Under the pieces are notes generated by a model, which was not told the DNA's origin, did no database searches, and saw only the letters and a list, made by a program, of their open reading frames with translations. Positions 48,381-57,910 of a stretch of DNA of 64,000 bases are shown here, in pieces (within the stretch, counting starts at the first letter, position 1; each line of letters starts with the position of its first letter). Location: contig JBAZYY010000002.1 of the NCBI GenBank assembly GCA_041659065.1, positions 24,091-88,090 on the forward strand, given 5' to 3'. The translations under genes were made by a program, and so were the position numbers. The DNA is from Parcubacteria group bacterium (lineage in GTDB: Bacteria > Patescibacteriota > Minisyncoccia > Moranbacterales > UBA11712).

Positions 48381-48794
48381 TTAAAACGGCTCCGGGTATA
48401 ATTTCCCCAGAGTTGTTTTTTGGAAATTTTCTTCTCCGGTCGGCCAAACATACATCGGCAGCTTCAAGTTTTTTCCGCCTAGCTGATACAGTGCGTTCAG
48501 GCACACTCCGCATGTGCCTCCGATTTTTTTGAGATCCCGAAAAGTTCCCTGATATGAAACGAGAATGGCTTCAATTTTTTTCTCCCCTTCCGAAAGAGCC
48601 TTGAGAAGCGCTACTCTTTCTGCGCAATAATCCATCGGACACCCATCGAAACTGCATCCACCGTATACTTTGCCGGATCCGCCCAGGATCGCCGCTCCAA
48701 AGGCTGATTTAGCGGGCTTAACATTAGAAAACTTCATTGCCTTTTCCGCCGTCTCGAACATTTCCCAAATTTTTTCCTTGGTAATATTTTTCAT
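48381..48794 (-). CDS. cdd: Cytidine deaminase
   Basis: CAERVAL and TCGVC zinc-binding motifs align with homotetrameric CDD (CAERTA…PCGAC). Confidence 0.75.
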   Translation of the reverse strand: MKNITKEKIWEMFETAEKAMKFSNVKPAKSAFGAAILGGSGKVYGGCSFDGCPMDYCAERVALLKALSEGEKKIEAILVSYQGTFRDLKKIGGTCGVCLNALYQLGGKNLKLPMYVWPTGEENFQKTTLGKLYPEPF

Positions 48795-49283: not shown

Positions 49284-49313
49284 ATTTTATTCGGTTAATT
49301 TTTTCCATTATTT

Positions 49314-49383
49314 CGGAGTGGGGAGAATCGAACTCCCGATACAAGACCCCCAGCCTTGCGTACTACCACTATACTACACTCCG
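49314..49383 (-). tRNA. tRNA-Pro (anticodon GGG)
   Basis: 70-nt cloverleaf folded by hand: acceptor CGGAGTG/CACTCCG, D-arm GTAT…GTAC, anticodon loop CTGGGGG (U33, G37), T-arm GGGAG-TTCGATT-CTCCC; no encoded CCA. Confidence 0.85.
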
Positions 49384-52992: not shown

Positions 52993-53667
52993 TTATGTCT
53001 TCTGGTCTTTTCTTGCAACCAGCATAATCATTTCATAATTTTCGTCTTCCTTATCGTCATATTTTAAAGGAAATTCTTTTTGCTCTATTGTAAATTCATT
53101 TGCTTCTAAAAGCTTGCAAAGCTTTTTGTTATTTTCAACTCCCTTTTTAGAAAGTAAACTTCTAGTAGATTCAAATGTTCTTCCTGGCTCATTTAAAATT
53201 ATGAATCTTCCGCCTGGTTTTAAGAACCTCGCAAATGCGCCCAACACTTCCTTGCAATCAACGTAATTTAATATTTCCGAAAATATCATAGTATCCACCC
53301 GTTCTCTATCCTTCTCGACACGCGGATCTATATTTAAGAAACTGCATATTTTCATAACTGCTTTTTTGAATCTAAAAGAAGATTCTTCTTTAGCTTTTTC
53401 AATATCAGCTCTTATATGTTGACGCCACTCGTTTCTCGTTTCATTACCAAATAAATCAATAGTTATAATTTTTTTATCTTTTTGTAAATATTCCGCCATT
53501 GGAAAGCTGCCGCTTCCAACATCTATGACGATTTCTCCTATTTTTCCCTCCTGTTCAAGCCCACGCAGAAAAGGAATAAAATGCTGCTTTCGTAATTTTT
53601 CCTGATATCCAACTCCCCAAGCTTTTTGCCAAAATTTTATTTTTTCACCTTTTTCCATAAAAGACAT
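52993..53667 (-). CDS. Class I SAM-dependent methyltransferase
   Basis: Motif I IDVGSGSG-like (VIDVGSGSFP), motif post-II LKPGGRFIIL. Confidence 0.7.
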   Translation of the reverse strand: MSFMEKGEKIKFWQKAWGVGYQEKLRKQHFIPFLRGLEQEGKIGEIVIDVGSGSFPMAEYLQKDKKIITIDLFGNETRNEWRQHIRADIEKAKEESSFRFKKAVMKICSFLNIDPRVEKDRERVDTMIFSEILNYVDCKEVLGAFARFLKPGGRFIILNEPGRTFESTRSLLSKKGVENNKKLCKLLEANEFTIEQKEFPLKYDDKEDENYEMIMLVARKDQKT

Positions 53668-53712: not shown

Positions 53713-54246
53713 CTATATTTGGGCGGTTTTTTGTTGGCTGAATTTTTGCACTAAAAATGGAAAGGACTCATAGATGCCAAAGAAAATTCCAGTATAAGCC
53801 AGATCTCCGATAAAACTGTTTCGAAAAAAAGGAAGAGCCAAAGTAAAACAGGATAGCAATCCTGGTAAGGTATGCGGGTACCAATTAAAAAAAGTCCAGA
53901 CCGCAAAATTCGTAATAACAAAAAAAATTACGGAAGACAGGATTGAAGCCAGCGCTATATTAAGCCACCGCTTTCGTTTCTTTAGCCGCCAACCGATGCC
54001 AAACGCAAGTGCGATGCTCAAATAGACCGAGACCATGACTTGCCAGTTGTAAAAGCCGATAAAATAATCACTCACAAGCATCGCCCCTAGCGGTAAAACT
54101 AGTCCCCAGCGTTTCCTGAGATAGCATCCCGAAAAAATACTCATTGCAACAACTGGGGTGAAATTGAAAGGATGCTTAACGAGCCTTGAAGCAGCGGCAA
54201 GCAAAATTATCGCCCCCGCGAAAATGATTTTACCTTTTTTTGACAT
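53713..54246 (-). CDS. Small polytopic membrane protein (possible ECF-type S-component-like transporter; function unknown)
   Basis: 177 aa, 5-6 TM helices, Trp/Phe-rich; lies immediately downstream of the MtrA/ThyA-like gene. Confidence 0.35.
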   Translation of the reverse strand: MSKKGKIIFAGAIILLAAASRLVKHPFNFTPVVAMSIFSGCYLRKRWGLVLPLGAMLVSDYFIGFYNWQVMVSVYLSIALAFGIGWRLKKRKRWLNIALASILSSVIFFVITNFAVWTFFNWYPHTLPGLLSCFTLALPFFRNSFIGDLAYTGIFFGIYESFPFLVQKFSQQKTAQI

Positions 54247-54256
54247 ATGCTTATTT

Positions 54257-55681
54257 TTATTTCGGGAGTTTTAAGGGTTCGTCCTGGATATAATCCAAAT
54301 CCAGTTTTATCGCCGTTTCCGCTTTCTGCAGCTCTGCGCCCAGATCGAGCGCGTGAGCAATAAGTGAAATTCCCAAATTCTGATCGATTTTTTTGGCGAT
54401 CTCAATAGACGCTTTTCTCGCCAGACCATCTTGCTTTATCGTTTCAAGAAGCGACCCCTCCGGACTGAAATGGGAAACGATAATCTCCTTATTTTTTCTA
54501 TTGATTTCGATTTTAAAATATCCTCGCGGATCTTCTTCGAATTGGTATCCCTTATCTTGAGCCGCGGTAATTTTCTGTGCTTCATCCCAATTGAAGTCGT
54601 AAACATGCGCGCTCGCCGAAATTATCGTAAGCGGCCCCATCAACAGTTTCGTTTCGTCGCAGATATTTTTTTGCAGCCTTCTGAGGCCGAAAGCGTTAAG
54701 CGGCCAACCACCAAAAAGGTCATGGGATCTCACATACGCGTTCAAGTGAAGCTTTTCCTGATTATAAAGCGCTTGGATTAGCACAATACAGGGCCGATGC
54801 TCCGCGTCATGATCAATCGTGGGATCAAACAACGTTCCCACGGCTTCGCGGGTATTCCTGTCTTTTTTGAGTTTGGCAATGATTTTTTTGAGTTGGTTCA
54901 CCTTAAAATGAGCCTGAAGCCGGTTGCCATACGTATAGTGCAGTCCTGGATTTTTTTCTTTACCGACTATTTGCGGCAGATATTCTTCAATTTTTTCCCG
55001 ACTAAACCCCAGCCAGTCCGGCACAAAAAAATTTTCGGGATCCTCATCAGTGACTACCGCCGCGAGGTTCGCAATTTCCTTTATCTTCATCGCGTCAGTT
55101 TCTTTGACATCGCCGAACCGCAAAACAGTTTTTAGCAGTTTAAGCCAAGTATCCGCAATGGTTTTTCCCCGCACCTTGAAAACCGAGCTATCGGTGGGGA
55201 AATGGCATTCAAGCCCCCCGGAACCCATTGCTTCCGGCTCCGGAAAATTTTCCGCCTCTCCATATGATCCCAGGCTCAAATCAAGCTTCCCGATTTCCAC
55301 TTCTATTTTTTTGCCATCTTCTTCGCCAACCAGATTGATTAGCTTTACGTTTTCAATCAAGTTTCCGACAGATTCAGTCTTAATTTCTTTTTGAAGACTT
55401 GCGCTTTTTCCCGTTTTCCACAATTTCATGAGTTCCGCTCCGGACCCCGAACGGTCCTGTCCACAAACGACAATGTAACGAATATTCTTATTCGCCAGAA
55501 GGTTTCGCACGAGATAGTTTATCCCATTTTTCGTATAGAGCTGGCCCGCTACCGAATATCCTTTCTTATCAATATTTTTCGTGATCTGGTCGCAAATCGT
55601 CCATAGCGTAACGATCCCCACCGGCGCTTTGGGATCTCCAAGTTTTAGCAAGTCTTTATAATAAGTGAGATTTTTAGACAT
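54257..55681 (-). CDS. Three-part protein: MtrA-like N-domain + thymidylate-synthase-like fold + DUF4346-like C-domain
   Basis: N-terminus PVGIVTLWT…NKNIRYIVVCGQD parallels MtrA (CVAVLTLGS…NPNIRFLILCGSE); centre aligns along ThyA (…REAVGTLFDP, RPCIVLIQALY with Cys, YVRSHDLFGGWPLN, SAHVYDFNW). Confidence 0.6.
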   Translation of the reverse strand: MSKNLTYYKDLLKLGDPKAPVGIVTLWTICDQITKNIDKKGYSVAGQLYTKNGINYLVRNLLANKNIRYIVVCGQDRSGSGAELMKLWKTGKSASLQKEIKTESVGNLIENVKLINLVGEEDGKKIEVEIGKLDLSLGSYGEAENFPEPEAMGSGGLECHFPTDSSVFKVRGKTIADTWLKLLKTVLRFGDVKETDAMKIKEIANLAAVVTDEDPENFFVPDWLGFSREKIEEYLPQIVGKEKNPGLHYTYGNRLQAHFKVNQLKKIIAKLKKDRNTREAVGTLFDPTIDHDAEHRPCIVLIQALYNQEKLHLNAYVRSHDLFGGWPLNAFGLRRLQKNICDETKLLMGPLTIISASAHVYDFNWDEAQKITAAQDKGYQFEEDPRGYFKIEINRKNKEIIVSHFSPEGSLLETIKQDGLARKASIEIAKKIDQNLGISLIAHALDLGAELQKAETAIKLDLDYIQDEPLKLPK

Positions 55682-55685
55682 CGCT

Positions 55686-56186
55686 TTAGTATAACACTTT
55701 ATACTTTAGCATTACCGAGTCATCGTTAATTTTTTCGACATTCAAAAGTTTTAGATTTACGTCAAAATCTCCGCCGAGGATTCCCAGCCCATCCCCGAAA
55801 ATTTTCGGTTCGATCGTAAGATAGATTTCATCCACTAGTTTATTTTTCAAAAATTGGGTGTTGAGAAATGATCCCCCGCCTAAAATCGCCGACTTATAGC
55901 CCATTCCTTCCAGTTCTTCCAAGACTTTTTGCGGTTCACCCGAAACCCATTTCACGTTTTCAATTTCAGGCGGATTTTTTTCAAGCGTAAAAACAACATT
56001 GAGCCGGTCAGGTAATGGCTTTGGGAATGTGAAAAAGGTCTTGTCGCCCATTATCACAACCCCATGCTCTTTTGAGATTTTCGCGAACATTTTTTTGTCT
56101 TCTTTTGACGTCCAATCCGGAAAATGATCGCTGGATTTCGCGATCTTGCCATCAGCCGTCACCGCCATCATGAGAATTATTTTCAT
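55686..56186 (-). CDS. folA: Dihydrofolate reductase family protein (DHFR/RibD_C-like)
   Basis: MKIILMMAVTADGKIA…VIMGDKTF…LPDR…GGGSF pattern of the DHFR-like fold. Confidence 0.7.
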   Translation of the reverse strand: MKIILMMAVTADGKIAKSSDHFPDWTSKEDKKMFAKISKEHGVVIMGDKTFFTFPKPLPDRLNVVFTLEKNPPEIENVKWVSGEPQKVLEELEGMGYKSAILGGGSFLNTQFLKNKLVDEIYLTIEPKIFGDGLGILGGDFDVNLKLLNVEKINDDSVMLKYKVLY

Positions 56187-56257: not shown

Positions 56258-57262
56258 TTACGAGCCTCCCACATTCACGATTTCCGCTTTGATTGCCGGG
56301 TGTGGATCATAGCCTTCCAGAGAAAAATCTTCATAAACGAAGTCATCGATATCCTTTTTATCTGGATTTAATTTCAATGTCGGAAATGGTTTTGGCTCTC
56401 GCGATAGCTGTTCCTTTACTTGTTCAAAATGATTCGAGTAAACATGCACGTCTCCGAAAAAGTGAACAAATTCGCCGGCGGGGATCCCCACAACTTGCGA
56501 GACCATTTGAAGAAGCAGCGCGTAGCTCGCGATATTAAACGGCACGCCAAGAAACAAATCGGCGCTCCTCTGGTACATGCCAAGATTCAGCTTATCGTTA
56601 ACAACCGCGAATTGAAAAGTCGTATGGCAAAACGGCGGCACTTCGTTTCGGTTTTCGGGTGATGCCATGGCGTAAATGAAATCCGGATTCCAAGCTGAAA
56701 CAACATATGATTTTCGATAAGGCTTGTCTTTGAGTCCGTTTATGCAATACCCCAGCTGATCAATGAGATGCCCGTCGCTTCCCGGCCATTTACGCCACAT
56801 CCGGCCGTAAATCGTCACGAGATCCCCCCATTTTTTCACAAATTCACTATCCGCCGATTCGGATTTTAGTTTGGCGATAAAATCTTTTTGTTCCAGATCT
56901 TTCTCCGGATAATTCTCAAGACAATATTTGTGATATTTTTTCCAAGCCCACTCATCCCAAATATGGACATCCCGGTCAACTAAATATTTAATGTTTGAGT
57001 CCCCAGTCAAAAACCAAAGAAGTTCTTCGAATATTCCCCGATAAAAAACTTTCTTCGTCGTAAGCAGCGGAAAGCCCTGCGCAAGATCAAAACGAATAAC
57101 CCGTCCAAAAACGGATCGGATAAAAGGCAGCTCCTCACCTTTTTTCCTGTATTGCGCCTGAACCTCCGGCGTCAGAAAAAGCGGCTTGTCCGCGCCGTTA
57201 TCAAGAATATCTTGGATTAAATTTAGATATTGATATTCGGGATGTTTTTGATTTTTTTCCAT
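56258..57262 (-). CDS. thyA: Thymidylate synthase (ThyA, long form)
   Basis: RFDLAQGFPLLTTKK, ELLWFLTG, PPFCHTTFQF (catalytic Cys), YQRSADLFLGVPFNIASYALL, GDVHVYSNH. Confidence 0.9.
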   Translation of the reverse strand: MEKNQKHPEYQYLNLIQDILDNGADKPLFLTPEVQAQYRKKGEELPFIRSVFGRVIRFDLAQGFPLLTTKKVFYRGIFEELLWFLTGDSNIKYLVDRDVHIWDEWAWKKYHKYCLENYPEKDLEQKDFIAKLKSESADSEFVKKWGDLVTIYGRMWRKWPGSDGHLIDQLGYCINGLKDKPYRKSYVVSAWNPDFIYAMASPENRNEVPPFCHTTFQFAVVNDKLNLGMYQRSADLFLGVPFNIASYALLLQMVSQVVGIPAGEFVHFFGDVHVYSNHFEQVKEQLSREPKPFPTLKLNPDKKDIDDFVYEDFSLEGYDPHPAIKAEIVNVGGS

Positions 57263-57301: not shown

Positions 57302-57910
57302 TTATTCTAAAATTCCGTCCAGATTTACGTCGTAAAGGATGCTTTCCTGAATCAAGCGATAGTTTAGAATCTCATCTTCCGAAAACCAATGCTTGATTTC
57401 CATCTCGGCTTCTTCAACGGATCCGGAAGCATGCAAAAGATTTCGCACCGCCCGGTCATCCACATCCGCCATACTGTAGGAATCAACCGTAAGATCCCCC
57501 CGAATAGTTCCAACATCGGATGTTAACGGCTCCGTTCCTCCCATCACTTTTCGAACGATTCCAACCGCCTGGTTTCCCTGCCAAATCATTCCAATTACCG
57601 GTCCGGCCGTTAGATATTTTTCTAAGCGGTCTAGAACTTGGTTTCCAATCGCCATCGGGTCCCTAGTCGGCGGCTCAAGCCCTTTTTTATCGTAAGCTTC
57701 GATAGATTTCACTCCCACGTTCTCAAGCCATTTTGGATCCAGGGTATAATGCTCCCTGACTTTTCCCGCGCTGGGAATAAACATTTTTAGTCCCACTAGC
57801 TTCAGTCCAGTCCGCTCAAATCTTTTAATAATTTCCCCGATCAAAGACCTTTGCACGCCATCCGGCTTGATGATTACGAATGTTCGCTCCTTGCTTGCGT
57901 CACTTTTCAT
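57302..57910 (-). CDS. ndk: Nucleoside diphosphate kinase (long form with insertions)
   Basis: ERTFVIIKPDGVQR, active-site His in NLLHASGS; 202 aa where ~140-150 is typical. Confidence 0.8.
   Translation of the reverse strand: MKSDASKERTFVIIKPDGVQRSLIGEIIKRFERTGLKLVGLKMFIPSAGKVREHYTLDPKWLENVGVKSIEAYDKKGLEPPTRDPMAIGNQVLDRLEKYLTAGPVIGMIWQGNQAVGIVRKVMGGTEPLTSDVGTIRGDLTVDSYSMADVDDRAVRNLLHASGSVEEAEMEIKHWFSEDEILNYRLIQESILYDVNLDGILE

What the first reader, a model, noticed from the sequence alone, without database searches (positions are those of the whole stretch)
54257..55681. Three-part MtrA-like / thymidylate-synthase-like / DUF4346-like protein encoded beside canonical thyA-folA-ndk
- The 474-aa ORF holds a complete ThyA-fold segment (about aa 160-365) that aligns motif by motif with the canonical ThyA 1.4 kb away, including a retained nucleophile-position Cys (RPCIVLIQALY), the Arg motif YVRSHD and the AHVY motif.
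- Its N-terminal ~120 aa parallel tetrahydromethanopterin S-methyltransferase subunit A (MtrA), and its C-terminal ~100 aa look like the domain that follows MtrA-like modules in non-methanogens (from memory).
- It lies in the same orientation directly downstream of ndk-thyA-dfrA and upstream of a small membrane protein and a SAM methyltransferase.
- A pterin-binding module wrapped around a second ThyA paralog suggests an undescribed C1/pterin-dependent pyrimidine (nucleotide or nucleic-acid base) modification enzyme.
Basis: partly seen in the sequence, partly recalled or inferred. Interest (0 to 1): 0.8.

Follow-up and report, generated by a model that had tools for sequence, protein, structure and literature searches.

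The report
Three-domain thymidylate-synthase-like enzyme of CPR/DPANN
The gene encodes a real, widespread but unstudied enzyme of ultra-small bacteria and archaea: a stripped-down thymidylate synthase core inserted between a domain borrowed from a methanogen vitamin-B12 protein (which has lost its B12-binding histidine) and a small domain of unknown function; it most likely makes the DNA building block dTMP, not an exotic modified base.

Summary
ORF 54257-55681 (-) encodes a 474-aa protein with three domains, all above Pfam cut-offs. They are MtrA-like (aa 4-140), a methanogen-type minimal ThyA core (aa 166-375) and DUF4346 (aa 376-474).

It is not unique. The window protein is 100% identical to a Parcubacteria MAG protein already named 'thymidylate synthase'. 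At least 406 species genomes of CPR bacteria, DPANN archaea and some Chloroflexota carry the same architecture.

The ThyA catalytic set is essentially invariant in 115 homologs: Cys298, Arg318/Ser319, Asn329, His359/Tyr361 and Tyr251.

Genome context points to dUMP-to-dTMP conversion. dCMP deaminase, dUTPase or thymidylate kinase lie nearby in 41 of 86 loci. Natural fusions exist to both thymidylate kinase and dCMP deaminase.

The MtrA-like domain is a true MtrA homolog but lacks the cobalt-ligand His in all 115 homologs. MtrA binds corrinoid, not pterin. DUF4346 has no informative structural relative.

One puzzle remains. In this clade and in some DPANN genomes the gene shares an operon with a canonical ThyA-DHFR pair, and DHFR tracks canonical ThyA rather than this gene.

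Verdict: a new variant of a known kind. The one-carbon donor and the role of the two accessory domains are unknown.

The parts
54257..55681 (-). Complete ORF, 474 aa: MtrA-like / minimal ThyA core / DUF4346 three-part protein.
   Evidence: 100% identical to a Parcubacteria MAG protein that NCBI and JGI name 'thymidylate synthase'.
55262..55672 (-). N-terminal MtrA-like Rossmann-type domain (aa 4-140). The His84 (cobalt ligand) position is Ser80 (55442-55444). The Glu54 position is Lys51 (55529-55531).
55187..55261 (-). Inter-domain linker (aa 141-165).
   Evidence: This is the only low-confidence stretch of the AF2 model: the block mean pLDDT falls to 60, and aa 153-155 are below 50.
54557..55186 (-). 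Minimal (methanogen-type) thymidylate-synthase-fold core (aa 166-375). Key codons: nucleophile Cys298 (54788-54790), Arg318/Ser319 (54725-54730), Asp321 (54719-54721), Asn329 (54695-54697), His359 (54605-54607), Tyr361 (54599-54601), Tyr251 (54929-54931), Arg278 (54848-54850).
54260..54556 (-). C-terminal DUF4346 domain (aa 376-474): three beta-strands followed by two helices, with invariant or near-invariant polar residues D384, R386, G387, H443, E450, K453, E455, Y464, Q466 and D467.
55686..56186 (-). DHFR-like reductase (RibD_C/DHFR_1). Its stop codon lies 4 nt upstream of the three-part start codon.
   Evidence: The same DHFR-to-three-part adjacency, with a 4-nt overlap, occurs in L089. 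A DHFR-SHMT gene overlaps the three-part gene by 14 nt in L035.
56258..57262 (-). Canonical thymidylate synthase ThyA (334 aa).
   Evidence: PF00303 312.5 bits. NCBIfam TIGR03284 351 bits and NF002496 340.8 bits, both above their cut-offs.
57302..57910 (-). Nucleoside-diphosphate kinase, first gene of the apparent operon. A terminator-like site (58037-58012) and a promoter-like site (58007-57979) lie just upstream.
   Evidence: consensus scans only.
53713..54246 (-). DUF6580 membrane protein ('putative transport protein'). Its start codon lies 10 nt after the three-part stop codon.
   Evidence: PF20221 165 bits. Junction read. Also adjacent in L089. Found near the three-part gene in only 6 of 86 loci. 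Substrate unknown.
52993..53667 (-). Class I SAM-dependent methyltransferase, last gene of the co-oriented run. Probably not part of the system.
   Evidence: Weak generic methyltransferase Pfam hits. phmmer with this protein as query found no homolog in any of the 81 surveyed loci (it is absent from the hit list).

Best explanation
The ORF encodes a member of a large CPR/DPANN family of thymidylate-synthase-type enzymes.

Shown by sequence and model: a minimal, methanogen-type ThyA core is flanked by an MtrA-derived Rossmann domain and a DUF4346 domain.

Inferred from conserved residues:
- The core binds dUMP. Arg318/Ser319, with Arg278 probably contributed by the partner subunit of a dimer, hold the phosphate.
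- Asn329 reads the uracil.
- His359/Tyr361 hold the 3'-OH.
- Cys298 attacks C6, so that C5 can accept a one-carbon unit.

Inferred from context: the product is dTMP, which is handed to thymidylate kinase. dUMP comes from dCMP deaminase or dUTPase.

The one-carbon donor is most likely a methylene-tetrahydropterin. Asp321, the equivalent of ThyA's pterin-contacting Asp169, is kept in 89 of 115 homologs.

The canonical folate-contacting elements (helix B with Glu58, and Trp80) are replaced by a shorter segment. The two accessory domains have conserved polar surfaces and appear in no stand-alone minimal ThyA seen here. I therefore infer that they bind or position the donor or cofactor, or regulate the core. 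This last step is hypothesis only.
For: - Architecture and fold.
- Catalytic residues in 115 homologs: C298 115, R318 115, S319 115, H359 115, Y251 115, Y361 114, N329 112, R278 110 (+5 Lys).
- hhalign mapping to E. coli ThyA.
- Context: dCMP deaminase lies within 3 genes in 30 of 81 loci, and Tmk in 23.
- Context: the most frequent families among 150 immediate neighbours are Tmk (16), dCMP deaminase (14) and DCD/dUTPase (10/9). SHMT scores 3.
- Context: at least one of these genes lies within 10 kb in 41 of 86 loci.
- Rosetta-stone fusions: P0108 is the three-part protein plus thymidylate kinase, and sits two genes from a dCMP deaminase gene. P0240 is the three-part protein plus a dCMP deaminase domain.
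- Stand-alone minimal cores (viral loci, L007) have the same catalytic constellation. Their nearest solved relatives by sequence are real thymidylate synthases.
- The fused cores form one clade, sister to the stand-alone minimal cores (rough NJ tree).
- NCBI and JGI already name the protein thymidylate synthase.
Against: - The score to the methanogen-type ThyA equivalog model (155.3 bits) is below its curated cut-off of 174.55.
- No member of the minimal ThyA clade has, to my knowledge, a demonstrated one-carbon donor, and no activity data exist for this family.
- In six loci, including the window, an intact canonical ThyA plus DHFR sit in the same cluster. That is odd for tiny genomes if the two enzymes are redundant.
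- DHFR occurs near the gene only where canonical ThyA does. A DHF-producing mechanism is therefore not supported by context.
- ThyA Arg127 is variable, and the Arg21/Glu58/Trp80 equivalents are not identifiable.
Confidence: 0.6

Rival explanations
1. It is a DHFR-independent thymidylate synthase that uses a new cofactor. The MtrA-derived domain (with DUF4346) would carry the one-carbon unit or the reducing equivalents. One option is a corrinoid bound base-off/His-off that delivers a methyl group to the Cys-activated dUMP. Another is a different redox cofactor. Either way no dihydrofolate is made.
For: - The N-terminal domain is a true homolog of the cobalamin-binding MtrA domain over its full length. 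Its most conserved segments are the loops after strands beta2 and beta3, which in MtrA sit under the corrin ring.
- DHFR is found near the gene only where a canonical ThyA is also present, and in 0 of the other 80 loci.
- The adjacent DUF6580 putative transporter (window, L089 and 4 other loci) lies next to a B12-binding radical-SAM gene, with a DUF4430 gene close by, in other CPR genomes.
- A distinct cofactor would explain why both enzymes are kept in one operon.
Against: - The cobalt ligand His84 is absent in 115 of 115 homologs. Glu54 is Lys or Asn in 99 of 115.
- The profile alignment places His84 in a two-residue insertion that this family lacks.
- No corrinoid methyltransferase or reactivation partner was seen in the neighbourhoods.
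- There is no cobalamin riboswitch in the operon.
- DUF6580 accompanies the gene in only 6 of 86 loci, and in another genome it sits beside a nucleoside phosphorylase.
- Absence of DHFR within 10 kb says nothing about the rest of the genome.
Confidence: 0.15
2. It is a pyrimidine-nucleotide modification enzyme that is not a thymidylate synthase. Examples would be a dUMP hydroxymethylase or hydroxylase that feeds a modified base into DNA.
For: - Coexistence with an intact canonical ThyA-DHFR pair in one operon is conserved in the window's clade and seen in DPANN.
- Sequence alone cannot separate methyl transfer from hydroxymethyl transfer.
Against: - In most loci (80 of 86) no other thymidylate synthase lies nearby. 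There the gene sits between or beside dCMP deaminase and thymidylate kinase, where a thymidylate synthase is expected.
- It is fused to thymidylate kinase and to dCMP deaminase.
- Asn329 specifies uracil, not cytosine.
- The hydroxylase AfhB is not detectable by sequence, whereas real thymidylate synthases are.
- No glycosyltransferase, dedicated dNMP kinase or other hypermodification gene recurs nearby.
- There is no link to defence systems.
Confidence: 0.12
3. In this particular genome it is a redundant second thymidylate synthase, comparable to ThyA/ThyB in Bacillus subtilis (from general knowledge). The accessory domains would serve only in oligomerisation or stability.
For: - Both genes look intact.
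- Stand-alone minimal cores exist without the accessory domains, so those domains are not needed for basic catalysis.
Against: - The polar residues of DUF4346 (D384, H443, Q466, D467, E450, K453, E455) and the MtrA-like loop residues (Y49, G53, R59, D76, S80) are invariant or nearly so. That looks like a ligand site rather than a scaffold.
- Variants with a decayed ThyA core keep both accessory domains, which implies those domains have a function of their own.
- Redundancy is unexpected in CPR genomes, yet the pairing is conserved at 65% protein identity.
Confidence: 0.1

Closest known systems
Methanogen-type (minimal) thymidylate synthase, NCBIfam TIGR03283 (MJ0757-like)
   Same: - The central domain covers positions 3-200 of the 201-position model (E 1.4e-45).
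- It has the same ~200-aa ThyA core without the canonical helix-B/Trp80 folate-contacting region.
- Stand-alone relatives have the same catalytic residues.
   Different: - The score is below the curated equivalog cut-off (155.3 against 174.55 bits).
- The core is embedded between an MtrA-like domain and a DUF4346 domain, which the stand-alone minimal cores examined here lack.
- Glu213 is conserved only in the fused family.
- The family is found mainly in CPR bacteria and DPANN archaea rather than methanogens.
Canonical ThyA (Pfam PF00303; E. coli and L. casei enzymes)
   Same: - Conserved equivalents of Cys146, Arg166, Ser167, Asp169, Asn177, His207, Tyr209, Tyr94 and Arg126.
- Genomic link to the dUMP and dTMP enzymes.
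   Different: - Only about 20% identity.
- Arg127 is variable, and the Arg21/Glu58/Trp80 equivalents are not identifiable. The alignment ends at E. coli residue 224 of 264, so the canonical C-terminal region has no counterpart.
- It has two extra domains.
- It is not linked to DHFR except where a canonical ThyA is also present.
MtrA, the corrinoid-binding subunit of N5-methyl-H4MPT:CoM methyltransferase (PDB 5laa, 5l8x; PMC4915002)
   Different: - The cobalt ligand His84 and its partner Glu54 are missing throughout the family.
- There is no membrane anchor.
- No other Mtr subunits lie nearby.
- It is fused to a nucleotide enzyme.
Small ThyA-fold flavin-dependent dCMP hydroxylase (phage HY126 AfhB, PDB 9iqu/9iqc) and CMP/dCMP hydroxymethylases (MilA, T4 dCH)
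   Different: - The named hydroxylases and hydroxymethylases act on cytosine nucleotides (entry titles), whereas this family keeps the uracil-type Asn (the Asn/Asp specificity rule is from general knowledge).
- AfhB is not detectable by sequence.
- The genomic context here is dTMP synthesis.
Proteins of ~380-415 aa with MtrA-like and DUF4346 domains (possibly NCBIfam NF002128, a 390-aa 'MtrA' model)
   Same: They have the same N- and C-terminal domains in the same order.
   Different: Their middle region is a decayed ThyA core without the PC, RSxD or AHxY motifs. The two loci examined are in DPANN genomes and have no nucleotide-metabolism context.

Membership tests
Thymidylate synthase ThyA superfamily (PF00303 fold) | Significant match to the family profile, and the ThyA fold. 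| tested here: met
   [not shown]
Thymidylate synthase ThyA superfamily (PF00303 fold) | Catalytic nucleophile Cys (E. coli C146) and the dUMP-binding residues R166, S167, N177, H207, Y209 and Y94. | tested here: met
   All are present in the window protein. They are conserved in 112-115 of 115 homologs.
Thymidylate synthase ThyA superfamily (PF00303 fold) | Canonical folate-binding elements: helix B with E58, W80/W83, the C-terminal tail, and the R21/R127 phosphate ligands. | tested here: not met
   The region is replaced by a shorter segment (aa 211-250). R127 is Glu in the window protein and variable in the family. No R21 or E58 equivalent can be identified.
Thymidylate synthase ThyA superfamily (PF00303 fold) | Catalysis of dUMP + CH2-THF -> dTMP + DHF. 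| not testable with these tools
   Only contextual support is available: neighbours and fusions with dCMP deaminase, dUTPase and Tmk.
Methanogen-type thymidylate synthase (NCBIfam TIGR03283 equivalog) | Score at or above the curated equivalog cut-off (174.55 bits), with full-length coverage. | tested here: not met
   Coverage is full (3-200 of 201), but the score is 155.3 bits, below the cut-off.
Methanogen-type thymidylate synthase (NCBIfam TIGR03283 equivalog) | Single-domain protein of about 200 aa. | tested here: not met
   The protein has 474 aa and two additional domains.
MtrA (corrinoid subunit of the Mtr complex, PF04208) | Homology to the MtrA soluble Rossmann-type domain. | tested here: met
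   [not shown]
MtrA (corrinoid subunit of the Mtr complex, PF04208) | Cobalt-coordinating His84 and its H-bond partner Glu54 (PMC4915002). | tested here: not met
   The window protein has Ser80 and Lys51 at these positions. No His occurs at this position in 115 homologs.
MtrA (corrinoid subunit of the Mtr complex, PF04208) | C-terminal membrane anchor and co-occurrence with the mtrB-H genes. | tested here: not met
   The MtrA-like domain is followed by the ThyA core and DUF4346, with no membrane anchor, and only three Pfam domains are detected. No Mtr subunit family appears among the 25 most frequent families of the 150 immediate neighbours.
MtrA (corrinoid subunit of the Mtr complex, PF04208) | Binds a corrinoid. 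| not testable with these tools
   Loss of the His ligand argues against His-on binding. Base-off/His-off binding cannot be excluded in silico.
DUF4346 (PF14251, 'PterinBD-DUF4346') | Match to the family profile. | tested here: met
   59.1 bits (cut-off 29.6). All 16 sub-sequences tested match.
DUF4346 (PF14251, 'PterinBD-DUF4346') | Pterin binding, as the Pfam name might suggest. | not testable with these tools
   [not shown]

The most novel reading that the evidence does not exclude
The three-part protein is a third mechanistic type of thymidylate synthase. A ThyA-fold core would receive its one-carbon unit or its reducing equivalents through an MtrA-derived cofactor domain that has lost the His ligand, assisted by DUF4346. 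It would not produce dihydrofolate and so would not need DHFR. This would explain why tiny CPR and DPANN genomes keep it alongside, or instead of, the canonical ThyA-DHFR pair. It could also show how the minimal archaeal ThyA enzymes obtain their one-carbon unit.
Probability: 0.15. Interest if true: 0.85.

Novelty: new variant of a known kind. Interest (0 to 1): 0.55.

Why it matters
- Thymidylate synthesis is essential, and only two enzyme classes (ThyA and ThyX) are established. This family is present in at least 406 species-level genomes of CPR bacteria, DPANN archaea and some Chloroflexota. Its MtrA-like domain type has 662 representative clusters at E <= 1e-10. It is probably the thymidylate synthase, or one of them, for a large part of the uncultured tree of life. 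No text search of the held literature found a description of it.
- Its accessory domains may show which one-carbon carrier the minimal archaeal-type ThyA uses. To my knowledge that question is still open.
- There is a practical annotation issue. The MtrA-like domain passes the Pfam MtrA threshold, so these proteins can be scored as 'tetrahydromethanopterin S-methyltransferase subunit A'. That could create false methanogenesis-marker calls in DPANN and CPR genomes and in ancestral reconstructions that count MtrA families. PMC13473441 uses arCOG03221 this way. Whether that arCOG includes these proteins was not tested.

Tried and rejected
- Literature: ten full-text searches found nothing on this architecture. 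Terms included DUF4346, PterinBD, MtrA with thymidylate synthase, MtrA-like, DUF6580, MJ0757, AfhB/dCMP hydroxylase, and CPR/DPANN with mtrA. Only the MtrA structure paper was useful.
- His-on corrinoid protein: rejected, because the ligand is absent family-wide.
- Flavin-dependent hydroxylase (AfhB-like): considered because of the fold matches. Judged unlikely because AfhB is not detectable by sequence, the specificity Asn is conserved, and the context is dTMP synthesis.
- Phage or defence origin: viral contigs carry only stand-alone minimal cores. PADLOC gives nothing meaningful. PHROGs hits are all 'thymidylate synthase'.
- Riboswitch clue to the cofactor: none in the operon or the window.
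- DUF4346 function from structure: no informative match. The afdb50 library was unavailable.
- DUF6580 as a cofactor clue: the contexts are mixed. They include DUF4430 and a B12-binding radical-SAM gene in one lineage, and a nucleoside phosphorylase in another.
- SAM methyltransferase neighbour: phmmer with it as query hit none of the 81 surveyed loci, so it was dropped from the model.
- My first neighbourhood count wrongly discarded canonical ThyA genes because they also hit the query weakly. This was corrected.
- Context of the decayed-core variants gave no functional hint.
Inter-domain contacts and pocket geometry could not be examined.
Full report
**1. The observation**

The ORF at 54257-55681 lies on the minus strand and encodes 474 aa. 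Pfam finds three non-overlapping domains, each above its gathering score:
- MtrA (aa 13-131, 46.5 bits).
- Thymidylat_synt (aa 247-373, 56.5 bits).
- PterinBD-DUF4346 (aa 383-467, 59.1 bits).

NCBIfam shows that the central domain is best described by the methanogen-type ThyA model TIGR03283. Residues 170-367 cover positions 3-200 of its 201 positions (E 1.4e-45). The score of 155.3 bits is below the curated equivalog cut-off of 174.55.

- ndk, canonical thyA (312 bits to PF00303, and above the NCBIfam equivalog cut-offs), and a DHFR-like gene lie upstream.
- The DHFR-like stop codon is 4 nt before the ORF's ATG.
- The DUF6580 membrane protein starts 10 nt after the ORF's stop codon.
- A SAM methyltransferase follows.

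A terminator-like site and a promoter-like site precede ndk. These are consensus matches only.

**2. It is a member of a large family**

The protein is 100% identical to a Parcubacteria MAG protein that NCBI and JGI already call 'thymidylate synthase'. More than 110 of the 120 best database hits (36-65% identity) have the same three Pfam domains.

A scan of one genome per GTDB species found at least 406 genomes encoding a relative. The 80 best come from many CPR lineages, from Woese-, Nano- and Aenigmatarchaeota, and from several Chloroflexota MAGs.

An exhaustive HMMER search with the N-terminal domain profile found 662 representative clusters at E <= 1e-10. Among 147 of the listed top hits screened with local HMMs, 95 carry all three domains. 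Most of the others are metagenomic fragments.

In a rough NJ tree the fused cores form one clade. That clade is sister to stand-alone minimal ThyA cores, and canonical ThyAs lie outside. This suggests a single origin of the fusion.

Viral contigs carry only the stand-alone core.

**3. The ThyA-like core looks catalytically competent and uracil-specific**

Profile alignment to E. coli ThyA (probability 99.1) gives these equivalences:
- Y94 = Y251
- R126 = R278
- C146 = C298
- R166/S167 = R318/S319
- D169 = D321
- N177 = N329
- H207/Y209 = H359/Y361

The E. coli sequence and numbering were supplied from my memory.

Conservation in 115 full-length homologs:

| Residue | Count |
|---|---|
| C298, R318, S319, H359, Y251 | 115 of 115 |
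| Y361 | 114 |
| N329 | 112 |
| R278 | 110 (+5 Lys) |
| D321 | 89 |

The canonical N-terminal folate-contacting region (helix B with E58, and W80) has no recognisable counterpart. It is replaced by a shorter segment carrying E213, Y234 and Y249, which are invariant or nearly so. R127 is variable.

Stand-alone minimal cores (four viral loci and L007) have the same constellation, including the Asn, but not E213. Their nearest solved relatives by sequence are genuine thymidylate synthases. AfhB is not detectable.

**4. Genome context says dUMP in, dTMP out**

- Among 81 loci, dCMP deaminase lies within three genes in 30, and thymidylate kinase in 23. Most are on the same strand.
- A Pfam census of 150 immediate neighbours is led by Tmk (16), dCMP deaminase (14) and dCTP deaminase/dUTPase (10/9). 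SHMT (3) and DHFR (2) also appear.
- In a final count, 41 of 86 loci have at least one of these dUMP-supplying or dTMP-consuming genes within 10 kb.
- Two natural fusions join the neighbouring pathway steps to the three-part protein. P0108 (738 aa, DPANN) adds a thymidylate kinase domain and sits two genes from a dCMP deaminase gene. P0240 (733 aa) adds a dCMP deaminase domain.

This is the strongest argument that the family carries out the thymidylate synthase step.

**5. The accessory domains**

The N-terminal domain is a true MtrA homolog over the whole soluble domain (profile E 7.6e-24). MtrA binds cobalamin, not pterin. Its cobalt ligand is His84, which is H-bonded to Glu54 (PMC4915002).

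The window protein has Ser80 and Lys51 at those positions. Across 115 homologs the His position is Ser 103, Ala 7, Thr 3, Cys 2 and never His. The profile alignment puts His84 in a two-residue insertion that this family lacks. His-on corrinoid binding is therefore excluded. Other modes of ligand binding at the same conserved loops (Y49, G53, D76, S80) are not excluded.

The same domain ends the archaeal DHPS-like model TIGR00284 and a 390-aa 'MtrA' model, NF002128.

A subfamily of 380-415-aa proteins keeps both accessory domains around a decayed ThyA core that lacks the catalytic motifs. This implies that the accessory domains have a role of their own. The context of two such genes was uninformative.

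**6. The unresolved puzzle**

In the window's closest relatives (65% identity) the gene again shares an operon with canonical thyA and folA:
- L089: dCMP deaminase, thyA, folA, three-part gene, DUF6580, dUTPase. The DHFR and three-part genes overlap by 4 nt.
- L090 has a similar gene set.

DPANN loci L032, L035 and L062 also combine canonical ThyA with the three-part gene. L035 and L062 carry a DHFR-SHMT fusion and Tmk in the same cluster. L032 has a DHFR hit within 10 kb.

Across 86 loci, canonical ThyA and DHFR occur in exactly the same six and in none of the other 80. DHFR therefore tracks canonical ThyA, not the three-part gene.

Two readings are possible:
- The three-part enzyme is a second, differently regulated or differently supplied thymidylate synthase.
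- It uses a donor or cofactor that does not generate dihydrofolate.

Whole-genome presence or absence of DHFR, ThyX and thymidine kinase would decide this. That test could not be run here.

The DUF6580 neighbour (6 of 86 loci) is a CPR-wide putative transporter of unknown substrate. Elsewhere it sits near DUF4430 and a B12-binding radical-SAM gene, or beside a nucleoside phosphorylase. This is suggestive but not decisive. No riboswitch is present. phmmer with the methyltransferase neighbour as query hit none of the 81 surveyed loci.

**7. Verdict**

The interpretation needs correcting in two ways:
- MtrA is a corrinoid module, not a pterin module, and here it has lost its cobalt ligand.
- The family-wide evidence favours ordinary thymidylate synthesis over a new base modification.

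The protein is best filed as a new variant of the ThyA kind. It has a minimal archaeal-type core with two conserved accessory domains of unknown role. It is widespread in CPR and DPANN, is named thymidylate synthase in databases, and was not found described in the held literature.

Confidence that it makes dTMP from dUMP is about 0.6. The donor and the function of the accessory domains remain open. I put about 0.15 on a genuinely new, DHFR-independent cofactor mechanism.

Noticed in passing
P0146, P0172, P0198, P0207, P0262, P0263, P0264 (loci L096 6001-7188, L097 6001-7203): A subfamily of 380-415-aa DPANN proteins keeps the MtrA-like and DUF4346 domains. Their middle ThyA core has decayed and has no PC, RSxD or AHxY motif. 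They are probably catalytically dead derivatives, and may correspond to the NCBIfam NF002128 'MtrA' model.
   Followed up: partly
L007 5370-9223 (Woesearchaeota CG10_44_13): Several genes lie just upstream of the Tmk and three-part gene pair: a stand-alone minimal ThyA core (215 aa), a CooC/CbiA-type ATPase and a 735-aa ACS/CODH beta-subunit (CdhC-like) gene. An acetyl-CoA synthase component is unexpected in a DPANN archaeon.
   Followed up: partly
L035 8167-9984 and L062 5290-7011: Woesearchaeota encode a single DHFR-SHMT fusion protein (573-605 aa). It sits next to canonical ThyA, Tmk and the three-part gene, so two steps of the thymidylate cycle are in one polypeptide.
   Followed up: no
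L029 11814-12767: A divergent 317-aa ThyA-like protein (only 37 bits to PF00303, with catalytic Cys/Arg/Ser/Asn retained) lies next to dCMP deaminase, two genes from the three-part gene, in a Patescibacteria genome. This may be a third ThyA-family lineage.
   Followed up: no
window 53713-54246; L092 4001-4531; L004 3991-4996: DUF6580, a very conserved CPR membrane protein, recurs next to DUF4430 and a B12-binding radical-SAM gene in some lineages. In another it sits next to a nucleoside phosphorylase. It is a candidate vitamin or nucleoside uptake component with unknown substrate.
   Followed up: partly
window 55686-56186: The 'folA' of this operon scores higher to RibD_C (74.7 bits) than to DHFR_1 (50.4 bits). 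It is a RibD_C-type reductase rather than a textbook FolA. The same type recurs in L089 and L090.
   Followed up: no
window 57302-57910: The nucleoside-diphosphate kinase is long (202 aa) and matches the NDK profile in two stretches. This implies an insertion of roughly 35-40 residues inside the domain.
   Followed up: no
window 48381-48794: A small cytidine/deoxycytidylate deaminase-like ORF (137 aa, with CAE and CxxC motifs read by eye) lies about 5.5 kb from the operon, beside a tRNA gene at 49313-49383. It was not hit by the dCMP deaminase references used.
   Followed up: no
PMC13473441: An ancestral reconstruction counts MtrA (arCOG03221) as a methanogenesis marker. MtrA-like domains fused to ThyA in DPANN could inflate such counts if they fall into that arCOG. 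This was not checked.
   Followed up: no
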